Source: Thermococcus kodakarensis KOD1
Lineage (GTDB): Archaea > Methanobacteriota_B > Thermococci > Thermococcales > Thermococcaceae
Reading direction: 5' to 3'
Length of the DNA stretch: 32,000 nucleotides
Assembly: GCF_000009965.1 (NCBI RefSeq)
Contig: NC_006624.1
Span: forward strand, 1,290,001 to 1,322,000
Part shown: in pieces, positions 3,336-31,274 of the stretch
Position numbering within the stretch: position 1 is the stretch's first letter
How the letters are laid out: every line of letters starts with the position of its first letter
The notes under the pieces: generated by a model
What the model was told of the DNA's origin: nothing
Database searches by the model: none
The model's input: the letters and a program-made list of their open reading frames with translations, nothing else
Program-made: the position numbers and the translations under genes

Positions 3336-4517
3336 TCACCTCCTGTTTATGAACCATGGGTACATTTCCACTGTGAATTCAATTGGAGGTGCTTGGACGG
3401 TGTGCCTTGGGTGGGAAACCCAACAATTGTAGCCCAAGCAGATGATAACATCCTCTTCATAAACGAACTCTGCTTCACCCCTTAGCTTAAGCTCTATCAT
3501 GTGGAATGGTGTTCCCTTTTTAACGAATGGGACAACAACAGGGTGTGCCACGAATATTTTGCCCCACGCGGGAGAGCTGCTCAGTAACCCTTTTTTCTTC
3601 AGGTCATAAAACTGAAATTCAATATCGCGGTTGGCATCGATGTCGTCCGTGTACCATTTGAAAATGAGCCCCTTAGTGTAAGTCTCACTGAAGCCTGCTG
3701 CTGCACTTGGAAGGCCCTTAGCGTCGATCCCTATATTTAAGCCCCAAGTGACGGTTGGCTCTGATGAAGAACCACTGCCTTCTGGCCTGAAACTCCCCAC
3801 GCCAAAGTAGGCTTGTTCAGGTGAGGGATTAAGGATCGTTGCCCTTTCTCTGACCTCCTTAACTGCCACTCGGAAATTCTTAGGGAAATCTCTCTCACTG
3901 GGCACTTTTGCCTCATGGCTCATGTAGACGTAGTAATAATATCCCATTCTTGCTTCGGCTACCCAAAAATCAGCACCAAGCTTGTTGTACACATGAACTT
4001 TGTGCCCCTCTCTGGTTGTTATTTCCTCTGATGTAGTCACCGTGCTAATCCGGCCTATTGACGTCCACTCTCTTGGGGGTTCATCTGCGAGCGCACCTCT
4101 AACTTTGAGAGGGAGCTTTCCGAACTTTCTGGCCTCAATGTAGAAGCTTTTCGTCATGACTTCAACATCCGAGGCCTTAACATCGTACCCGAGGTAATAC
4201 AATGGGGCATACGCTCCTGAGGGAAGTCTTCTCAGGGCAATACCAACGAAAGTAGCATTACTGAACTCTTCAAGGTTTATCCTAAGTGTTAGTCTATCCC
4301 AATATTTCTGCAAAAACTGTTCAGCCATTTGTGTACTGGATTTTCCGGAAAAAGTTTTCAATGCAACATTATCCCCTGGGACTGGCAATGGCAATGAGGG
4401 CTCCTTTTGAGGCGATGGAGAAACTCCAACCTCTTCATACCCTCGAACCTCGGCAAGTACTACGCTGCCAACCACAAGTAGCCCCAGCAGGACTGCGAAC
4501 AAGGGTTTCCACTTCAT
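3336..4517 (-). CDS. Secreted or exported protein of unknown function (N-terminal signal peptide)
   Basis: Start chosen at the internal ATG (4517) because GAGGTG lies about 6 nt upstream. The N-terminus MKWKPLFAVLLGLLVVGSVVLAEV is a typical signal peptide. I recognise no motif in the remaining ~370 aa. Visibly AT-richer than flanking genes. Confidence 0.7.
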   Translation of the reverse strand: MKWKPLFAVLLGLLVVGSVVLAEVRGYEEVGVSPSPQKEPSLPLPVPGDNVALKTFSGKSSTQMAEQFLQKYWDRLTLRINLEEFSNATFVGIALRRLPSGAYAPLYYLGYDVKASDVEVMTKSFYIEARKFGKLPLKVRGALADEPPREWTSIGRISTVTTSEEITTREGHKVHVYNKLGADFWVAEARMGYYYYVYMSHEAKVPSERDFPKNFRVAVKEVRERATILNPSPEQAYFGVGSFRPEGSGSSSEPTVTWGLNIGIDAKGLPSAAAGFSETYTKGLIFKWYTDDIDANRDIEFQFYDLKKKGLLSSSPAWGKIFVAHPVVVPFVKKGTPFHMIELKLRGEAEFVYEEDVIICLGYNCWVSHPRHTVQAPPIEFTVEMYPWFINRR

Positions 4518-9128: not shown

Positions 9129-10160
9129 TCAGAACTCCCTCTCGACGAGGAACTCCGCGAGAAGCTCAAGGTCTCTCCTGGCTTCGCTCTCAGGGAGAAC
9201 CTTGAGGGCCTCGTTCGCTTCCCTGATGAGGTTCTTGGCATAGTTTGCCGCGTAGTCTATGCTGCCGTACTTCTTGAGGAGTTCGATGGCCTTCGCGACC
9301 TCCTCCTTGACGTTCTCGTCGTGTATCAGCGCATCGCCCTTAGCATCGCCAGCATACTTGCCGAAGACTTTCAGGAACTCGGCCTTGTCCTCCTCGCTCG
9401 CGTGCTCAAAGAAGTGGCTCACTATGAGCGTCTTCTTACCCTTCCTTATGTCGCTTCCAACGGGCTTTCCGAGCTTCTCCTCGTCGGCAATCAGATCGAG
9501 GACGTCGTCCCATATCTGGAAGGCTATTCCGACGTTCATGCCCCACTTTGAGAGGGCCCCGATGTACTCCTCGTCCTCCGTGCCCACTATTGCACCTATC
9601 TCTGCCGAGCCCTGGAAGAGCGCGCCGGTCTTGCCGCTTATCATCTTGAGGTACTCCTCTACGGTGACCTCTTCCTTCGTCTCGAACTCTATGTCGAGGG
9701 CCTGGCCTTCACAGAGAAGGTTGGAAGTCCTGACGAGAACATCCAGGATTCTCGCCTTCTTCTCGGCTGGGACTTCCGCTTTGGCTATCGCCTCGAAAGC
9801 CTTGCTGAAGAGCAGATCGCCGGCGAGGATTGCCATGTTCACTCCCCAGAGCTTGTGGACGGTCGGCCTGCCGCGCCTGAGCTCGTCCATGTCCATTATA
9901 TCGTCGTGAACGAGGGAGTAGTTGTGGATGAACTCAACGGAAGCCGCCGGATAGAGGGCCTTCTCCGGGTCGCCGCCAACTGCCTCGGCCGCGCGGAGGA
10001 CGACGAAGGGCCTAACGCGCTTTCCACCTGCAAGAGGGTAGTGTCTAGCAGCTTTATAAAGCTCAAGAGGCTCCTTTTCGGGAACAAGTTCGAGAATGAC
10101 CCTATCAACGTCCTTCGCCTTCTCCTTAATCCTTGCAAACAGCTCATCGTACTTTCCCAT
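9129..10160 (-). CDS. idsA: Geranylgeranyl diphosphate synthase (trans-polyprenyl synthetase)
   Basis: First aspartate-rich motif LVHDDIMDMDELRRG and second motif FQIWDDVLD. The ~340 aa size is typical of archaeal short-chain prenyl synthases. Confidence 0.9.
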   Translation of the reverse strand: MGKYDELFARIKEKAKDVDRVILELVPEKEPLELYKAARHYPLAGGKRVRPFVVLRAAEAVGGDPEKALYPAASVEFIHNYSLVHDDIMDMDELRRGRPTVHKLWGVNMAILAGDLLFSKAFEAIAKAEVPAEKKARILDVLVRTSNLLCEGQALDIEFETKEEVTVEEYLKMISGKTGALFQGSAEIGAIVGTEDEEYIGALSKWGMNVGIAFQIWDDVLDLIADEEKLGKPVGSDIRKGKKTLIVSHFFEHASEEDKAEFLKVFGKYAGDAKGDALIHDENVKEEVAKAIELLKKYGSIDYAANYAKNLIREANEALKVLPESEARRDLELLAEFLVEREF

Positions 10161-21074: not shown

Positions 21075-21151
21075 TGGTGCGGTGGCCGGGATTTGAACCC
21101 GGGCCAGCGGCGTGGCAGGCCGCTGTCCTAGCCAGGCTAGACTACCACCGC
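21075..21151 (-). tRNA. tRNA-Gly (anticodon GCC), CCA encoded
   Basis: The reverse complement folds as a cloverleaf: acceptor GCGGTGG/CCACCGC, D stem GTCT/GGAC, anticodon stem GCGGC/GCCGC with loop CTGCCAC, 4-nt variable region, T arm CCGGG-TTCAAAT-CCCGG, then discriminator A and CCA. Confidence 0.9.
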
Positions 21152-21227: not shown

Positions 21228-21254
21228 GAGTCTTCAGAAAGGGTTAGCGGGCGT

Positions 21255-21332
21255 GCCCCGGTGGCCTAGTCTGGATAGGGCGCGAGGCTGCGGACCTCGA
21301 GGTCCGGGGTTCAAATCCCCGCCGGGGCGCCA
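21255..21332 (+). tRNA. tRNA-Arg (anticodon GCG), CCA encoded
   Basis: Acceptor GCCCCGG/CCGGGGC, D stem GCCT/GGGC, anticodon stem CGAGG/CCTCG with loop CTGCGGA, variable AGGTC, T arm CGGGG-TTCAAAT-CCCCG, discriminator G and CCA. Confidence 0.9.
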
Positions 21333-21574
21333 TAGAAACTTTTCTGGCGAAAAGTTTCATCAAAGAGGGAATGTCTTTTTAAACTGCTGAGTTTCAGCTA
21401 TTCTCATTACCAAATTAGCAGTTTTCAAGGGGTTTGCTCGCAGTATAACGCCCAACGAGCGTTAAAAAGAAGAAAAACCCAAATTCTCTTGCCTGTACAT
21501 TAGGAGAATCTCCATTCTCAGCCAATATCACGAAGACATTCAAGCTTTTGGTGAAGCTTTCTCCAAAAGCTTCC
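21333..21574 (+). repeat. Mosaic-array module type I, copy A1 (paralog of 30155-30397)
   Basis: It begins 2 nt after the tRNA CCA with the hairpin GAAACTTTTC-tggc-GAAAAGTTTC (21335-21358). The core hairpin is at 21447-21463. It ends with three AAGCTT hexamers (21542, 21554, 21567). It is alignable by eye over its whole length to B1, at roughly 70-75 percent. Confidence 0.85.
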
Positions 21575-21885
21575 TCGTGAAGTTTGATCAAGTTCGTGGT
21601 TCTCTTGAAATTGCCCTTCTAAAAGGATTTTCACGATAAATTAGCTAAAAGTGAGTGAATTCTTCGAGCATACTTAATTGGAAAGGAGTTTTCTCGCCTT
21701 GACGCCCTATGGGCGTCGATTAAAAAGCAAACTCACAAAGAGCGAGCGAACAAAAATGGAATTCACACTCCAAGACAGCATTCAAAAGGAAATCCACTCA
21801 AAACAACCCTCTAATCAAGAACCACAAACTTTGATGAAACTTTGCCGGGCAAAGTTTCTTTGGTGAAGCTTTCCCAAAAGCTTGC
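21575..21885 (+). repeat. Mosaic-array module type III, copy A2 (paralog of 30659-30946)
   Basis: The ~25-bp terminal inverted repeats 21580-21607 and 21816-21842 close the module. The core hairpin GACGCCC-tat-GGGCGTC is at 21701-21717. The 23-bp palindrome GAAACTTTGCC-g-GGCAAAGTTTC is at 21836-21858, followed by an AAGCTT hairpin at 21866-21883. Confidence 0.85.
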
Positions 21886-25810: not shown

Positions 25811-25980
25811 AGGTATCACCAATGATATATACAACTTCAACATATAAAAAGCTTTCCTAAAGACATTCGTTAAAAAATGATTCGACAATCGACGAATAAT
25901 TTGAAAAAGCACCCAATCCGTCCGACGAAAACCATAAAAATGCTAAGAACAGCCAAAAAAGAAAAACAGCCCTATCAGAC

Positions 25981-26326: not shown

Positions 26327-26358
26327 GTTATGGTTCATCTCTAAACAAGGTGAGAAAA

Positions 26359-30076: not shown

Positions 30077-30154
30077 GGACCGGTAGCCTAGCCAGGATAG
30101 GGCGGCGGCCTCCTAAGCCGCAGGTCCGGGGTTCGAAGCCCCGCCGGTCCGCCA
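30077..30154 (+). tRNA. tRNA-Arg (anticodon CCT), CCA encoded
   Basis: Acceptor GGACCGG/CCGGTCC, D stem GCCT/GGGC, anticodon stem GCGGC/GCCGC with loop CTCCTAA, variable AGGTC, T arm CGGGG-TTCGAAG-CCCCG, discriminator G and CCA. Confidence 0.9.
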
Positions 30155-30397
30155 TAGAAACTTTTCTAATGAAAAGTTTCACCAAAGAGCGAATGTCCTT
30201 TTGAGCGCCCTGCTTTTCAGTGATTCTCACAATCAATTTGCAATTCTCAAGGGGTTTGCTCGGAGTATAACGCCCAAAGGGCGTTAAAAAAGAAGAAAAA
30301 CCCGCACTTCCCTGCCCATCCATCAAGAGAATCTAACCTTATCAAGCCAATTCTCGGAGACATTCGAGCTTTTGGTGAAGCTTTTCCAAAAAGCTTC
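30155..30397 (+). repeat. Mosaic-array module type I, copy B1
   Basis: Hairpin GAAACTTTTC-taat-GAAAAGTTTC at 30157-30180. Core hairpin AACGCCC-aaa-GGGCGTT at 30269-30285. Terminal GAGCTT/AAGCTT/AAGCTT triplet at 30366, 30378 and 30391. Collinear with A1. Confidence 0.85.
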
Positions 30398-30658
30398 AGC
30401 GCTGGCGGAAGATTGGTATGCTTTCTTTTTAGATATGCCTGCTTTTGAAGGGTTTACTTCCAATTGGCTGATTCAAAAGGATTTTCTCACCGTATAGTGC
30501 CCGAAGGGCACTAAAAAGAAAGTCAAAAATCACAATTAGCGCGGGGATTTTGGAGTTAAACCCGCGCGAGCCTGCCTTCTTGAGAGCATACACTCCCTAA
30601 CAGGCGAGATCGAGGAGAAGGGCACACACTTTTGGTGAAGCTTTTTCTAAAAGCTTCC
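30398..30658 (+). repeat. Mosaic-array module type II, copy B2
   Basis: It starts AGCGCTGGCGGAAG. Core hairpin AGTGCCC-gaa-GGGCACT at 30496-30512. Long-range complement GTATGCT (30416-30422) / AGCATAC (30585-30591). It ends with the hairpin GAAGCTTTT-tct-AAAAGCTTC (30637-30657). Collinear with B4 at about 70 percent by eye. Confidence 0.85.
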
Positions 30659-30946
30659 TGCGCGAAGTTTGATCAAGGTTCGTAGCTCTTTTTCGGAATG
30701 CCAATTCACCGTGATTTTCCAACTCAAATGGCTTTTTGAGAGTGAGAACCCTTAATCCACCCTGTCAACTCGTGTTTAACTCTAAATCGGCGCCCTTTGG
30801 GCGTCAAAGAAAAGAAAACACCCTCTTCAAGAAGCTTCCTAAAAGGTTCTCACTCAAAAATGAGCACTTGCAGTCTAAAATCCTAAAATAAAACCCTCTT
30901 GAAGAAGAGCTACAAACTTTGATGAAACTTTGCCTGGCAAAGTTTC
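30659..30946 (+). repeat. Mosaic-array module type III, copy B3
   Basis: The 30-nt terminal inverted repeats 30665-30694 and 30901-30930 match at 26/30. Core hairpin GGCGCCC-ttt-GGGCGTC at 30789-30805. It ends with the 23-bp palindrome GAAACTTTGCC-t-GGCAAAGTTTC at 30924-30946. Confidence 0.85.
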
Positions 30947-31205
30947 AGCGCCGGCGGAAAAGAGGTATGCGTTTTTAATGAACTAATTTTTGAGTGGGTT
31001 TACTTTCGAGTTGCCAGACTTACAGGATTTTCCCCACAGTATAGTGCTCTTTGAGCGCTAAAAAGAAAGTTCGAAATCACAATTAACGAGAGATTTTTAA
31101 GAACAAACCCACACGCGAACCTGCTTTCTGGGGAGCATACACTCCCGATAAGCAAAGTTCGAGAAGAAGGGCACACTTTTGGTCAAGCTTTTTCCAAAAG
31201 CTTGC
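30947..31205 (+). repeat. Mosaic-array module type II, copy B4
   Basis: It starts AGCGCCGGCGGAAA. Core hairpin AGTGCTC-ttt-GAGCGCT at 31043-31059. It ends with the hairpin AAGCTTTT-tcc-AAAAGCTT (31185-31203). Confidence 0.85.
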
Positions 31206-31274
31206 TGGAAACGAAAGGCTTAAATACTTCAACACTTTTATTTTCTTCAGGTAAGAAAAAAGGAGGTGGTGGCC

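What the first reader, a model, noticed from the sequence alone, without database searches (positions are those of the whole stretch)
30155..31205. Four-module mosaic repeat array (I-II-III-II) directly 3' of tRNA-Arg(CCT): an unclassified structured non-coding system
Seen in sequence: about 1.05 kb with no credible ORF lies between the tRNA CCA end and the next gene.
- It resolves into four units: B1 30155-30397, B2 30398-30658, B3 30659-30946 and B4 30947-31205.
- B2 and B4 are paralogs. B1 and B3 are paralogs of the two units that follow tRNA-Arg(GCG) at 21333-21885.
- All three module types share one architecture. Each has a boundary hairpin made of perfect AT-rich arms (GAAACTTT..AAAGTTTC or GAAGCTTT..AAAGCTTC). 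Each has a long-range closing complementarity, and a central block AGGRTTTYCTC..GTAT plus a 7-bp GC stem with a 3-nt loop plus an AAAAAGAAR run. Each ends with a terminal hairpin.

The array is not a CRISPR locus (there are no short uniform repeats and spacers). It is not an IS (no transposase) and not an integrated element (no integrase, no duplicated tRNA 3' half).

Inference: it may be one of three things:
- A tRNA-linked array of small structured RNA genes, possibly released from a tRNA-led precursor.
- A MITE/BIME-like mosaic element family that targets or is retained downstream of tRNA-Arg.
- A protein-binding DNA scaffold.

I do not recognise it as a described family.
Basis: partly seen in the sequence, partly recalled or inferred. 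Interest (0 to 1): 0.82.

Follow-up and report, generated by a model that had tools for sequence, protein, structure and literature searches.

The report
Hairpin-bounded repeat cassettes behind tRNA genes
The 1-kb gap after a tRNA-Arg gene of Thermococcus kodakarensis holds four stacked copies of a non-coding, self-complementary repeat family that in this genus was found only just behind tRNA genes, changes its make-up between close relatives, and contains start sites of small RNAs previously listed as orphans.

Summary
The window is T. kodakarensis KOD1, genome positions 1,290,001-1,322,000. tRNA-Arg(CCT) is followed by four 240-290 nt units in the order I-II-III-II. tRNA-Arg(GCG) is followed by I-III plus a solo end hairpin.

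- **Non-coding:** indels between copies are mostly 1-2 nt, and Rfam has no match.
- **Shared anatomy:** all units share hairpin-bearing ends and a central GC hairpin. Types I and III are long imperfect palindromes.
- **Always tRNA-linked:** related units lie behind tRNA-Arg, tRNA-Gln and tRNA-Gly genes in seven other Thermococcus genomes or contigs. Every copy found is in a tRNA 3' flank.
- **Rapid turnover:** KOD1 and T. peptonophilus flanks are 85-92% identical, yet the modules between them are replaced or absent. The breaks fall at the hairpins.
- **Transcribed:** published dRNA-seq places three orphan start sites inside these two arrays. Of 53 unnamed orphan start sites in KOD1, 28 lie within 1.5 kb of a tRNA gene (chance about 2.5).

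Best reading (about 0.5): a MITE/BIME-like cassette family that is recombined or mobilised at its hairpins, is confined to tRNA 3' flanks, and carries promoters. The enzyme is unknown. Selected small-RNA genes and terminator or insulator roles remain open. I found no prior description.

The parts
30077..30154 (+). tRNA-Arg(CCT), TKt25. Its encoded CCA end is the fixed left anchor of array B.
   Evidence: Coordinates match Jager 2014 Table S8.
30155..30397 (+). Unit B1, type I. Inverted end hairpins at 30157-30180 and 30377-30397. Central GC hairpin at 30270-30284, followed by an A-run.
   Evidence: Self-complementarity z=5.3.
30398..30658 (+). Unit B2, type II. Central GC hairpin at 30497-30511. 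End hairpin at 30637-30657. A published minus-strand orphan start site lies at 30419, 22 nt right of the B1/B2 hairpin. A BRE/TATA-like GTAAAC-CCTTCAAAAG lies at 30457-30442 on the minus strand.
   Evidence: The promoter was read directly from the sequence.
30659..30946 (+). Unit B3, type III, a long imperfect palindrome. Its left end keeps only the 3' arm of the type III left hairpin. Central GC hairpin at 30789-30805. End hairpin at 30924-30946.
   Evidence: 81% identical to the type III unit behind T. peptonophilus tRNA-Gln.
30947..31207 (+). Unit B4, type II, ending in the array-terminal hairpin CAAGCTTTTTCCAAAAGCTTG (31184-31204) plus CTG. Central hairpin at 31043-31059.
   Evidence: The right boundary comes from the comparison with T. 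peptonophilus.
21255..21332 (+). tRNA-Arg(GCG), TKt24, the anchor of array A.
21333..21573 (+). Unit A1, type I. End hairpins at 21335-21358 and 21553-21573. A published plus-strand orphan start site lies at 21406, 26 nt downstream of a TATA-like CTTTTTAAA at 21375-21383.
21574..21858 (+). Unit A2, type III, a divergent subtype. A published minus-strand orphan start site lies at 21594, 21 nt right of the A1/A2 hairpin.
21859..21885 (+). Solo terminal hairpin TTTGGTGAAGCTTTCCCAAAAGCTTGC. It matches the right end of a type II unit whose body is missing here but present at the same site in T. peptonophilus.

Best explanation
**What it is.** The array belongs to a lineage-restricted family of non-coding, hairpin-bounded, largely self-complementary DNA modules. 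There are three sub-types of 240-290 bp. They sit head to tail in the 3' flanks of tRNA genes in the T. kodakarensis clade of Thermococcus.

**How the modules behave.** They act like cassettes.
- The short AT-rich hairpins at their ends are the points where modules are gained, lost and swapped between tRNA loci.
- The first hairpin sits 2 nt after the encoded CCA.

**How this probably happens (inferred).** The likely route is a recombinase or transposase acting in trans, or template switching at the palindromes. No enzyme was identified.

**By-product or secondary function.** The modules carry promoter-like and oligo-T sequences. Each array therefore emits short transcripts on both strands. 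This would account for a large share of the 'T. kodakarensis-specific orphan small RNAs'.

**Shown versus inferred.**
- Shown: the anatomy, the non-coding nature, the tRNA linkage, the turnover between species, and the published start sites inside the arrays.
- Inferred: mobility as the cause of turnover, the hairpins as the sites of action, and the presence of the same family at the other KOD1 tRNA loci.
For: **Family and anatomy**
- All six units in the window align and share their ends and central hairpin.
- Type I has inverted ends of about 41 nt.
- The type III closing stem and central hairpin keep pairing through double changes at 5 positions across 6 copies.

**Non-coding**
- 1-2 nt indels dominate every pairwise comparison.
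- No open frame is kept across copies.

- KOD1: tRNA-Arg(GCG) and tRNA-Arg(CCT).
- T. peptonophilus: tRNA-Arg(GCG) and tRNA-Gln.
- Metagenome contig L125: tRNA-Gln. This hit came from a pattern that did not include the tRNA.
- T. siculi: tRNA-Arg(GCG) and tRNA-Gly.
- T. profundus and T. piezophilus: tRNA-Arg(GCG).
- T. onnurineus and strain GR6: a degenerate unit behind tRNA-Arg(CCT).
- The junction CCA-TA-GAAACTTT is identical at three different tRNAs.

**Turnover**
- KOD1 and T. peptonophilus flanks align at 85-92% identity up to 21363, from 21859, up to 30172 and from 31208.
- Between those points, locus A is I-III in KOD1 and III-II in T. peptonophilus.
- Locus B holds 1,035 bp of array in KOD1. 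T. peptonophilus has 294 unrelated bp with a small ORF there.
- The III-II pair of KOD1 locus B recurs behind tRNA-Gln in T. peptonophilus.

**Transcription**
- Jager 2014 lists orphan start sites at genome positions 1311406(+), 1311594(-) and 1320419(-), all inside the arrays.
- 28 of 53 unnamed orphan start sites lie within 1.5 kb of a tRNA. The random mean is 2.5 and the maximum 8. Of the 28, 23 are on the 3' side.
- Non-coding gaps of 0.7-1.1 kb follow TKt7/8 and TKt16/17.

**Not a known family or element**
- Nothing in Rfam.
- Nothing in plasmid or phage collections.
- Nothing in viral contigs with family-specific patterns.
Against: - No target-site duplication, partner transposase or recombinase was found.
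- Locus B is a replacement, not a clean insertion.
- Copies are not dispersed as typical MITEs are.
- Sampling was centred on tRNA loci. Only one hit (L125) is unbiased with respect to tRNA.
- I could not read the rest of the KOD1 genome, so 'only at tRNA flanks' and 'many loci' rest on published start-site coordinates, not on sequence.
- Diverged units persist at the same tRNA in distant species: type I behind tRNA-Arg(GCG) in T. piezophilus, and a type II-like unit behind tRNA-Arg(CCT) in T. onnurineus and GR6. Compensatory changes also keep two helices. Both facts fit a selected function as well as they fit mobility.
Confidence: 0.5

Rival explanations
1. The modules are true small-RNA genes kept by selection. 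Each junction encodes a transcript of about 125 nt. It starts about 21 nt outside a boundary hairpin, runs through the hairpin, and stops at the oligo-T next to the central GC hairpin of the neighbouring unit. The arrays would then be clusters of paralogous regulatory RNAs placed beside tRNA genes.
For: - Three published start sites lie inside the arrays. Two minus-strand sites sit at the same offset (21-22 nt) from a junction hairpin, although the units to their right are of different types (sequence).
- BRE/TATA-like sequences lie at the right distance from those sites (read from the sequence).
- Compensatory changes occur in the closing stem and central hairpin.
- Plus-strand folds of types I and III still beat shuffles at 85 C, with z from -2.6 to -6.0.
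- Diverged units persist at the same tRNA across species.
Against: - Only 3 of 6 units have a reported start site.
- B1 has lost the TATA-like box that A1 has.
- The units are about 68% self-complementary, and most mismatches break pairing on both strands.
- The strand tests disagree. The 85 C z-scores favour the plus strand. The count of G.T versus A.C mismatches (87 versus 129) favours the minus strand.
- The whole array is absent at the orthologous site of relatives with 94-98% protein identity.
- GC content is 40-46%, which is low for structured RNA at 85 C (argument from PMC3849170).
Confidence: 0.2
2. The modules are cis-acting parts of tRNA gene expression. The hairpins, with T4-T5 runs on both strands, stop read-through from the strong tRNA promoter and shield the neighbouring gene. 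The arrays would then be stacked two-way terminators or insulators.
For: - The first hairpin begins 2-6 nt after CCA at every occupied tRNA, including T. siculi and T. piezophilus.
- A circularised pre-tRNA-Arg(GCG) on record spans 1311251-1311347. It ends 15 nt after the tRNA, in the T-run and loop of the first hairpin (2 reads only).
- The same hairpin motif lies just downstream of tRNAs in other archaea.
- The motif occurs in tandem, each copy followed by a T-run, in a tailed-virus contig.
Against: - One hairpin would be enough. This does not explain 240-290 bp bodies, three body types, or a 1-kb array.
- Several tRNAs in the same loci have none.
- Close relatives manage tRNA-Arg(CCT) without any unit.
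- The units themselves start transcription.
Confidence: 0.12
3. The arrays are decayed non-coding remains of plasmids or viruses that once integrated into these tRNA genes. The remains were later copied between loci by recombination.
For: - tRNA genes are the integration sites of Thermococcales elements and the breakpoints of inversions (PMC5495485).
- Inversions with ends at these very tRNA flanks are seen in T. profundus and T. siculi.
Against: - There is no second copy of the tRNA 3' half.
- No integrase family appears among the neighbouring genes of the syntenic locus.
- There is no similarity to any plasmid, phage or viral contig.
- The units begin after the CCA end, not inside the tRNA as att sites do.
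Confidence: 0.08
4. The arrays are neutral segmental duplications of spacer DNA, with no mobility and no function.
For: The two KOD1 loci share the tRNA type and the type I unit (family D1).
Against: - The modules occur at tRNA-Gln and tRNA-Gly in other genomes.
- Module order differs per locus.
- Interiors are replaced within 85-92% identical flanks.
- The breaks fall at hairpins, and some helices covary.
Confidence: 0.03

Closest known systems
BIMEs / REP mosaic elements of enterobacteria
   Same: - Intergenic mosaics built from a few palindromic unit types in variable order.
- They are transcribed and vary between strains.
   Different: - REP units are about 35 nt, whereas these modules are 240-290 nt with internal structure.
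- BIMEs lie between genes in general, not behind tRNAs.
- REPs are linked to RAYT (HUH) transposases. No such gene was seen or tested here.
MITEs and foldback elements, such as Sulfolobus SM elements, Neisseria Correia elements and haloarchaeal PATEs
   Same: - Small non-coding units with inverted ends that fold back on themselves.
- Presence/absence differences between close relatives.
- Outward promoters, as in Correia elements.
   Different: - No target-site duplication was found.
- No partner IS was found.
- Copies are stacked in tandem at one kind of site (tRNA 3' ends) rather than dispersed.
- Type II has only the 21-nt hairpins as shared ends.
Integron cassette arrays (attI plus attC-bounded cassettes)
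   Same: - An ordered array beside a fixed anchor.
- Each cassette ends in a hairpin site.
- The same cassettes occur in different orders and at different loci.
- One cassette appears precisely lost, leaving its end hairpin (21859-21885).
   Different: - No integron integrase was found.
- The cassettes are non-coding.
- The hairpins are short perfect palindromes (8-bp arms), not 60-140 bp attC sites with extrahelical bases.
- The anchor is a tRNA end.
tRNA-linked small RNAs in Archaea, such as the Tko-sR44/tRNA-Arg co-transcript in T. kodakarensis and the dicistronic tRNA-C/D box RNAs of Nanoarchaeum
   Same: Non-coding RNA sequence directly adjoining a tRNA gene.
   Different: - No C/D or H/ACA boxes, and no Rfam match.
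- Tko-sR44 lies with TKt19 at genome position 1,240,785, outside this window.
- Oligo-T runs argue against one long tRNA-led precursor.
Repeated small-RNA families of Pyrococcus abyssi (sRk48/52, sRk49, sRkB/C; PMC3124441)
   Same: Repeated intergenic sequences in Thermococcales that give small transcripts.
   Different: - sRk48/52 has one copy in T. kodakarensis and a K-loop.
- sRkB/C relate to OrfB transposase 3' ends and are specific to P. abyssi.
- None is described as tRNA-linked.
- I did not compare the sequences directly.

Membership tests
MITE | Terminal inverted repeats | tested here: met
   - Type I has inverted ends of about 41 nt, including the hairpins.
- Type III has a closing stem of 27 nt or more.
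- Type II shares only the hairpins.
MITE | Target-site duplication flanking each copy | tested here: inconclusive
   - Units abut each other or the tRNA.
- The only filled-versus-empty comparison (locus B) is a replacement of 294 bp, so no duplication can be read.
MITE | Many dispersed copies in the genome | tested here: inconclusive
   - All copies seen are in tRNA 3' flanks.
- The rest of the KOD1 genome could not be read.
- Start-site statistics suggest about 14 tRNA loci.
MITE | A related autonomous transposon with the same ends | tested here: not met
   - No transposase lies next to any unit.
- No recurrent protein gene lies next to the hairpin motif in 180 loci.
- No plasmid or phage match.
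REP/BIME | Units are imperfect palindromes of 20-40 nt combined in mosaics | tested here: not met
   - The mosaic order is present.
- The units are 240-290 nt. Only their end hairpins (21-24 nt) are of REP size.
Any Rfam RNA family | A match at or near the gathering score | tested here: not met
   Only tRNAs matched. The best other hits have E>0.08, and these overlap the tRNAs.
CRISPR array | Short uniform direct repeats (20-50 nt) separated by unique spacers of similar length | tested here: not met
   - The repeats are the whole 240-290 nt units.
- Hairpin spacing is 216-547 nt, and the sequence between hairpins is itself repeated.
Integrated element at a tRNA (attL/attR) | Direct repeat of the tRNA 3' part at the far end, plus an integrase | tested here: not met
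   - There is no second copy of the tRNA 3' 26 nt, allowing up to 3 mismatches.
- No integrase family appears among the neighbours of the syntenic locus.
Integron | An IntI integrase gene next to the array, and attC sites with the R''-L''/L'-R' structure | tested here: not met
   - No integrase family appears in the syntenic annotation.
- The boundary sites are perfect palindromes with 8-bp arms.
Small protein gene | A reading frame kept across homologous copies | tested here: not met
   - Indels between copies are mostly 1-2 nt.
- The longest open stretches fall in different frames and strands in different copies.

The most novel reading that the evidence does not exclude
**The reading.** tRNA 3' ends in Thermococcus serve as docking sites of an integron-like platform for non-coding cassettes.
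- A still unknown enzyme recognises the short hairpin SAARCTTTT-loop-AAAAGYTTS-AYCAAA.
- It inserts, excises and shuffles promoter-bearing small-RNA cassettes there.

**Wider link.** The same hairpin may mark an old, widespread tRNA-associated mobile or processing signal.
- In tRNA-sense orientation it begins at the 5' exon/intron boundary of tRNA introns in Micrarchaeota, Woesearchaeota, Altiarchaeota, Methanocellales and Nitrosopumilaceae.
- It lies just behind tRNAs in other archaea.
- It occurs in multi-copy intergenic repeats of Acetobacteraceae and Clostridia.
Probability: 0.12. Interest if true: 0.85.

Novelty: new variant of a known kind. Interest (0 to 1): 0.62.

Why it matters
- **Orphan small RNAs.** T. 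kodakarensis is a main genetic model for Archaea. About half of its unexplained orphan small-RNA start sites cluster behind tRNA genes. If these arrays are the source, one repeat family explains much of that 'species-specific' non-coding transcriptome.
- **Genome rearrangement.** The arrays mark tRNA 3' flanks as sites of fast, cassette-like DNA turnover. This sits beside the known role of tRNA genes in integration and chromosome inversion in Thermococcales.
- **A testable mechanism.** If the hairpins are true recombination sites, this would be a new way of building and shuffling non-coding gene arrays. It could be tested directly in a tractable organism.

Tried and rejected
- **Metagenome scan.** The central-block pattern gave only two loci, and one (L124) was a chance match.
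- **Box C/D or K-turn reading of TGATGA in the hairpin flank.** Rejected: there is no CUGA partner, the variants TGGTGA and TGATCA occur, and Rfam is negative.
- **IS200/IS605-derived element (PATE) or TnpB guide-RNA remnant.** This idea came from sRkB/C in PMC3124441 and the HgcC RNAs. It was set aside because:
  - the ends are inverted rather than the asymmetric left and right ends of that family;
  - the hairpin directly abuts the putative TTGAT;
  - no TnpA or TnpB gene is nearby;
  - there is no HgcC match.
- **Conserved small ORF.** Rejected. The 54-58 aa minus-strand ORFs of B2 and B4 are frame-shifted in the T. peptonophilus copy.
- **Integrated-element remnant.** No att duplication and no mobile-element similarity.
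- **Strand of a putative RNA.** Two tests gave opposite answers, so I make no strand call.
- **Circular RNAs from the arrays.** None was found among the coordinate prefixes I searched in the KOD1 circRNA tables. That search was incomplete.
- **A protein gene travelling with the hairpin motif.** None recurs across loci.
- **Literature searches.** I found no description of these repeats.
Full report
**Where the window comes from**

The three tRNA genes found in the window lie at 21075-21151 (-), 21255-21332 (+) and 30077-30154 (+). After adding 1,290,000, these coordinates match TKt23, TKt24 and TKt25 of Thermococcus kodakarensis KOD1 in Table S8 of Jager et al. 2014 (PMC4247193). The window is therefore KOD1 genome positions 1,290,001-1,322,000. 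The nearest protein match of the downstream gene is 98% identical, from T. peptonophilus.

**Checking the observation**

The region 30155-31274 has no credible gene. The four proposed units and the two units behind tRNA-Arg(GCG) align with one another. nhmmer supports the proposed pairings, with identities:

| Pair | Type | E-value | Identity |
|---|---|---|---|
| A1/B1 | I | 1e-38 to 5e-38 | 80% |
| B2/B4 | II | 1e-34 | 71% |
| A2/B3 | III | 1e-15 | 57% |

- **Boundary motif.** TTTGRTSAARCTTT..AAAGYTTS occurs nine times in 32 kb, only in the two arrays. None is expected by chance.
- **First hairpin.** The copy directly after each tRNA is inverted. Type I therefore has inverted ends of about 41 nt.
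- **Self-complementarity.** Types I and III, and unit B2, are self-complementary over their whole length (z=3.2-6.5). B4 scores 0.8 and coding controls are at or below 1.7. B3 folds into one long hairpin with z=-6.8.
- **Central hairpin.** All types carry a 6-7 bp GC hairpin followed by an A-rich run. The AGGRTTTYCTC..GTAT block is present only in types I and II.
- **Composition.** The arrays are 40-46% GC against 50-55% in the flanking genes.

**Not coding and not a known RNA**

- Among all homologous pairs from KOD1, T. peptonophilus and a metagenome contig, indels are mostly 1-2 nt. The longest open stretches fall in different frames and strands in different copies.
- Rfam gives only the tRNAs, at gathering thresholds and at E up to 10.
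- The array has no similarity to plasmids or phages.
- Family-specific patterns are absent from viral contigs.
- No second copy of the tRNA 3' end is present.

**Related loci**

I fetched syntenic loci through the downstream phosphoesterase and through a triose-phosphate isomerase next to a metagenomic hit.

| Genome or contig | Locus | What lies behind the tRNA |
|---|---|---|
| T. peptonophilus | L121 | III-II behind tRNA-Arg(GCG); nothing behind tRNA-Arg(CCT), where 294 unrelated bp with a small ORF lie |
| T. peptonophilus | L184 | III-II-III behind tRNA-Gln |
| Metagenome contig | L125 | I plus half of III behind tRNA-Gln, with the same CCA-TA-GAAACTTT junction as in KOD1; found with a pattern from the centre of the unit |
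| T. siculi | L122 | Type III behind tRNA-Arg(GCG) and half a type III behind tRNA-Gly; the tRNA pair is inverted |
| T. profundus | L200 | Type III behind tRNA-Arg(GCG); the segment from tRNA-Gly to tRNA-Arg(CCT) is inverted relative to KOD1 |
| T. piezophilus | L189 | Half a type I behind tRNA-Arg(GCG) |
| T. onnurineus, strain GR6 | L123, L188 | A degenerate type II-like unit behind tRNA-Arg(CCT) |
| 94%-identical relative | L187 | None |
| T. zilligii, T. celer, P. furiosus | L185, L186, L199 | None in the stretches fetched |

In all of this DNA no unit lies away from a tRNA 3' flank. Other tRNAs in the same stretches (Leu, Pro, Ser, His, Val, Arg-TCG) have none.

**Turnover**

KOD1 and T. 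peptonophilus align at 85-92% identity up to window 21363 and again from 21859. They also align up to 30172 and again from 31208. Between these points the content is not collinear.

- Locus A is I-III plus a solo end hairpin in KOD1, and III-II in T. peptonophilus.
- The two type III units at locus A are only 49% identical, so one did not descend from the other in place.
- The solo hairpin at 21859-21885 matches the right end of the type II unit that T. peptonophilus has there. This looks like precise loss of a module body between two hairpins.
- The III-II pair of KOD1 locus B, including its junction, recurs behind tRNA-Gln in T. peptonophilus. Its type III unit is 81% identical.

In every locus compared, the boundaries of change coincide with the hairpins. 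This is the main evidence for cassette-like exchange. The agent is unknown.

**Structure conservation**

Across six type III copies, the closing stem and the central hairpin keep pairing through double changes at five positions. The interior has no conserved consensus pairing. Inverted ends recognised by a protein would covary in the same way, so this does not separate an RNA function from a DNA function.

The strand tests conflict:
- At 85 C the plus-strand folds of types I and III beat shuffles (z from -2.6 to -6.0), and the minus-strand folds do not.
- Mismatches in the self-alignments are G.T 87 against A.C 129 on the tRNA strand. That would favour the minus strand.
- Most mismatches (357) break pairing on both strands.

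**Transcription**

Jager et al. list orphan small-RNA start sites at 1311406(+), 1311594(-) and 1320419(-). In window coordinates these are 21406, 21594 and 30419.

- The plus-strand site lies 26 nt downstream of CTTTTTAAA in A1. B1 has lost that box.
- The two minus-strand sites lie 21 and 22 nt to the right of a junction hairpin.
- BRE/TATA-like sequences sit about 27 nt further right, for example GTAAAC-CCTTCAAAAG in B2.
- Reading leftward, these transcripts would cross the hairpin and meet the oligo-T beside the central hairpin of the neighbouring unit after about 125 nt. This is read from the sequence and is an inference.
- Units II-IV carry several T5 runs on the tRNA strand.
- A circularised pre-tRNA-Arg(GCG) in a KOD1 data set ends 15 nt after the tRNA (PMC9014305; 2 reads).

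A single long tRNA-led precursor is therefore unlikely.

Genome-wide, 28 of the 53 unnamed orphan start sites lie within 1.5 kb of a tRNA gene. The random mean is 2.5 and the maximum of 2,000 trials is 8. Of the 28, 23 are on the 3' side. Gaps of 0.7 and 1.1 kb follow TKt7/8 and TKt16/17. I could not read those sequences, so their membership in this family is an inference.

**Interpretation**

- **Best-supported reading.** This is a MITE/BIME-like family of hairpin-bounded cassettes confined to tRNA 3' flanks. It turns over quickly by events at the hairpins and emits small transcripts from internal promoters (confidence 0.5).
- **How it differs from typical MITEs.** It has tandem stacking, one kind of site, no visible target duplication and no partner transposase.
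- **How it differs from BIMEs.** The units are much larger, and they are tRNA-linked.
- **How it differs from integrons.** There is no integrase gene nearby, and the boundary sites are not attC-like.
- **Rivals.** These are selected small-RNA genes (0.2), terminator or insulator modules for tRNA genes (0.12), remains of integrated elements (0.08) and neutral duplication (0.03).

**A side observation**

The hairpin motif is not specific to Thermococcus.

- It matched 58 viral contigs, against 3 and 6 for two scrambled controls.
- In seven ARAGORN-called archaeal tRNA genes, and one more that I read by eye (L038), it lies inside the intron. These come from Micrarchaeota, Woesearchaeota, Altiarchaeota, Methanocellales, an unclassified archaeon and Nitrosopumilaceae. 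In each case it begins at the 5' exon/intron boundary, in the same orientation as behind Thermococcus tRNAs.
- In other archaea it follows the tRNA within 3-56 nt.
- In Acetobacteraceae and Clostridia it is part of multi-copy intergenic repeats.
- Some viral matches are inside coding sequence.
- No protein gene travels with it.

I cannot explain this. It may be the intron-internal helix next to the splice site, a general AT-rich terminator-type hairpin, or a shared recombination signal.

**Limits**

- Copy number and distribution in the full KOD1 genome were not measured directly.

Noticed in passing
L014 4380-4510, L116 690-814, L050 6056-6170, L100 4277-4390, L094 2602-2769, L031 2353-2476, L062 6197-6315, L038 about 4120-4290: The boundary hairpin of the Thermococcus repeats, [CG]AAACTTTT-loop-AAAAGTTT[GC]ATCAAAA, also lies inside tRNA introns of very different archaea. 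These are Micrarchaeota, Woesearchaeota, Altiarchaeota, Methanocellales, an unclassified archaeon and Nitrosopumilaceae. It always starts at the 5' exon/intron boundary and is always in tRNA-sense orientation.
   Followed up: partly
L016 636-790; L049 6076-6237; L010 2924-3082: In other archaeal MAGs the same hairpin follows a tRNA within 3-56 nt. In L016 and L049 it is followed by a second copy of the tRNA's 3' end (about 21 nt). This looks like a tiny insertion with a long duplication.
   Followed up: no
L007, L009, L028, L029, L034 and others (Acetobacteraceae); L001, L025 5450-6250, L039, L044 (Clostridia MAGs); L033, L052 (Aminicenantes): - The same motif is part of multi-copy intergenic repeats in bacteria.
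- In Acetobacteraceae it is followed by a second hairpin, CCGCCTTTTTGAAAAAAGGCGG.
- In Clostridia it is followed by a GC hairpin and sometimes occurs as inverted pairs 250-460 nt apart.
- L025 has a tandem unit of about 400 nt full of such hairpins.
- On viral contigs the motif matched 58 loci, against 3 and 6 for scrambled controls.
   Followed up: partly
L121 9872-9949; L122 about 9855-9924; L123 4313-4395; L188 about 9844-9926; L187 about 9847-9929: A small ORF of about 25-28 codons lies between tRNA-Arg(CCT) and the phosphoesterase gene in five Thermococcus genomes. Its product reads M-[IVL]-E-D-A-[VIL]-L-x-Y with a K/R-rich tail. It is missing in KOD1, where the array sits in its place.
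   Followed up: no
L200 700-10000; L122 800-1660: - In T. profundus the roughly 9-kb segment from tRNA-Gly to tRNA-Arg(CCT) is inverted relative to KOD1. The breakpoints are in the tRNA 3' flanks.
- In T. siculi only the tRNA-Gly/tRNA-Arg(GCG) pair is inverted, with type III pieces on both sides.
   Followed up: partly
window 21251-21347 (genome 1311251-1311347): A KOD1 circular-RNA table lists a 97-nt circle (2 reads). It spans from the tRNA-Arg(GCG) start site to 15 nt past its 3' end, and it ends in the T-run and loop of the first hairpin (PMC9014305 supplement).
   Followed up: no
window 26297 (-), genome 1316297: Another published orphan start site (GC 0.32, 'T. kodakarensis-specific') lies in the gap between the ORFs ending at 25912 and starting at 26350, upstream of the SRP54 gene. 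It is not part of the repeat family according to nhmmer.
   Followed up: no
L158 9100-9165 and 4356-4382: A 11.6-kb, 33% GC tailed-virus contig with portal, capsid and terminase genes carries two tandem copies of GAAGCTTTTCCTAAAAGCTTC, each followed by a T-run. It also has a third hairpin just upstream of a gene start. These are near-identical to the KOD1 junction hairpins.
   Followed up: partly
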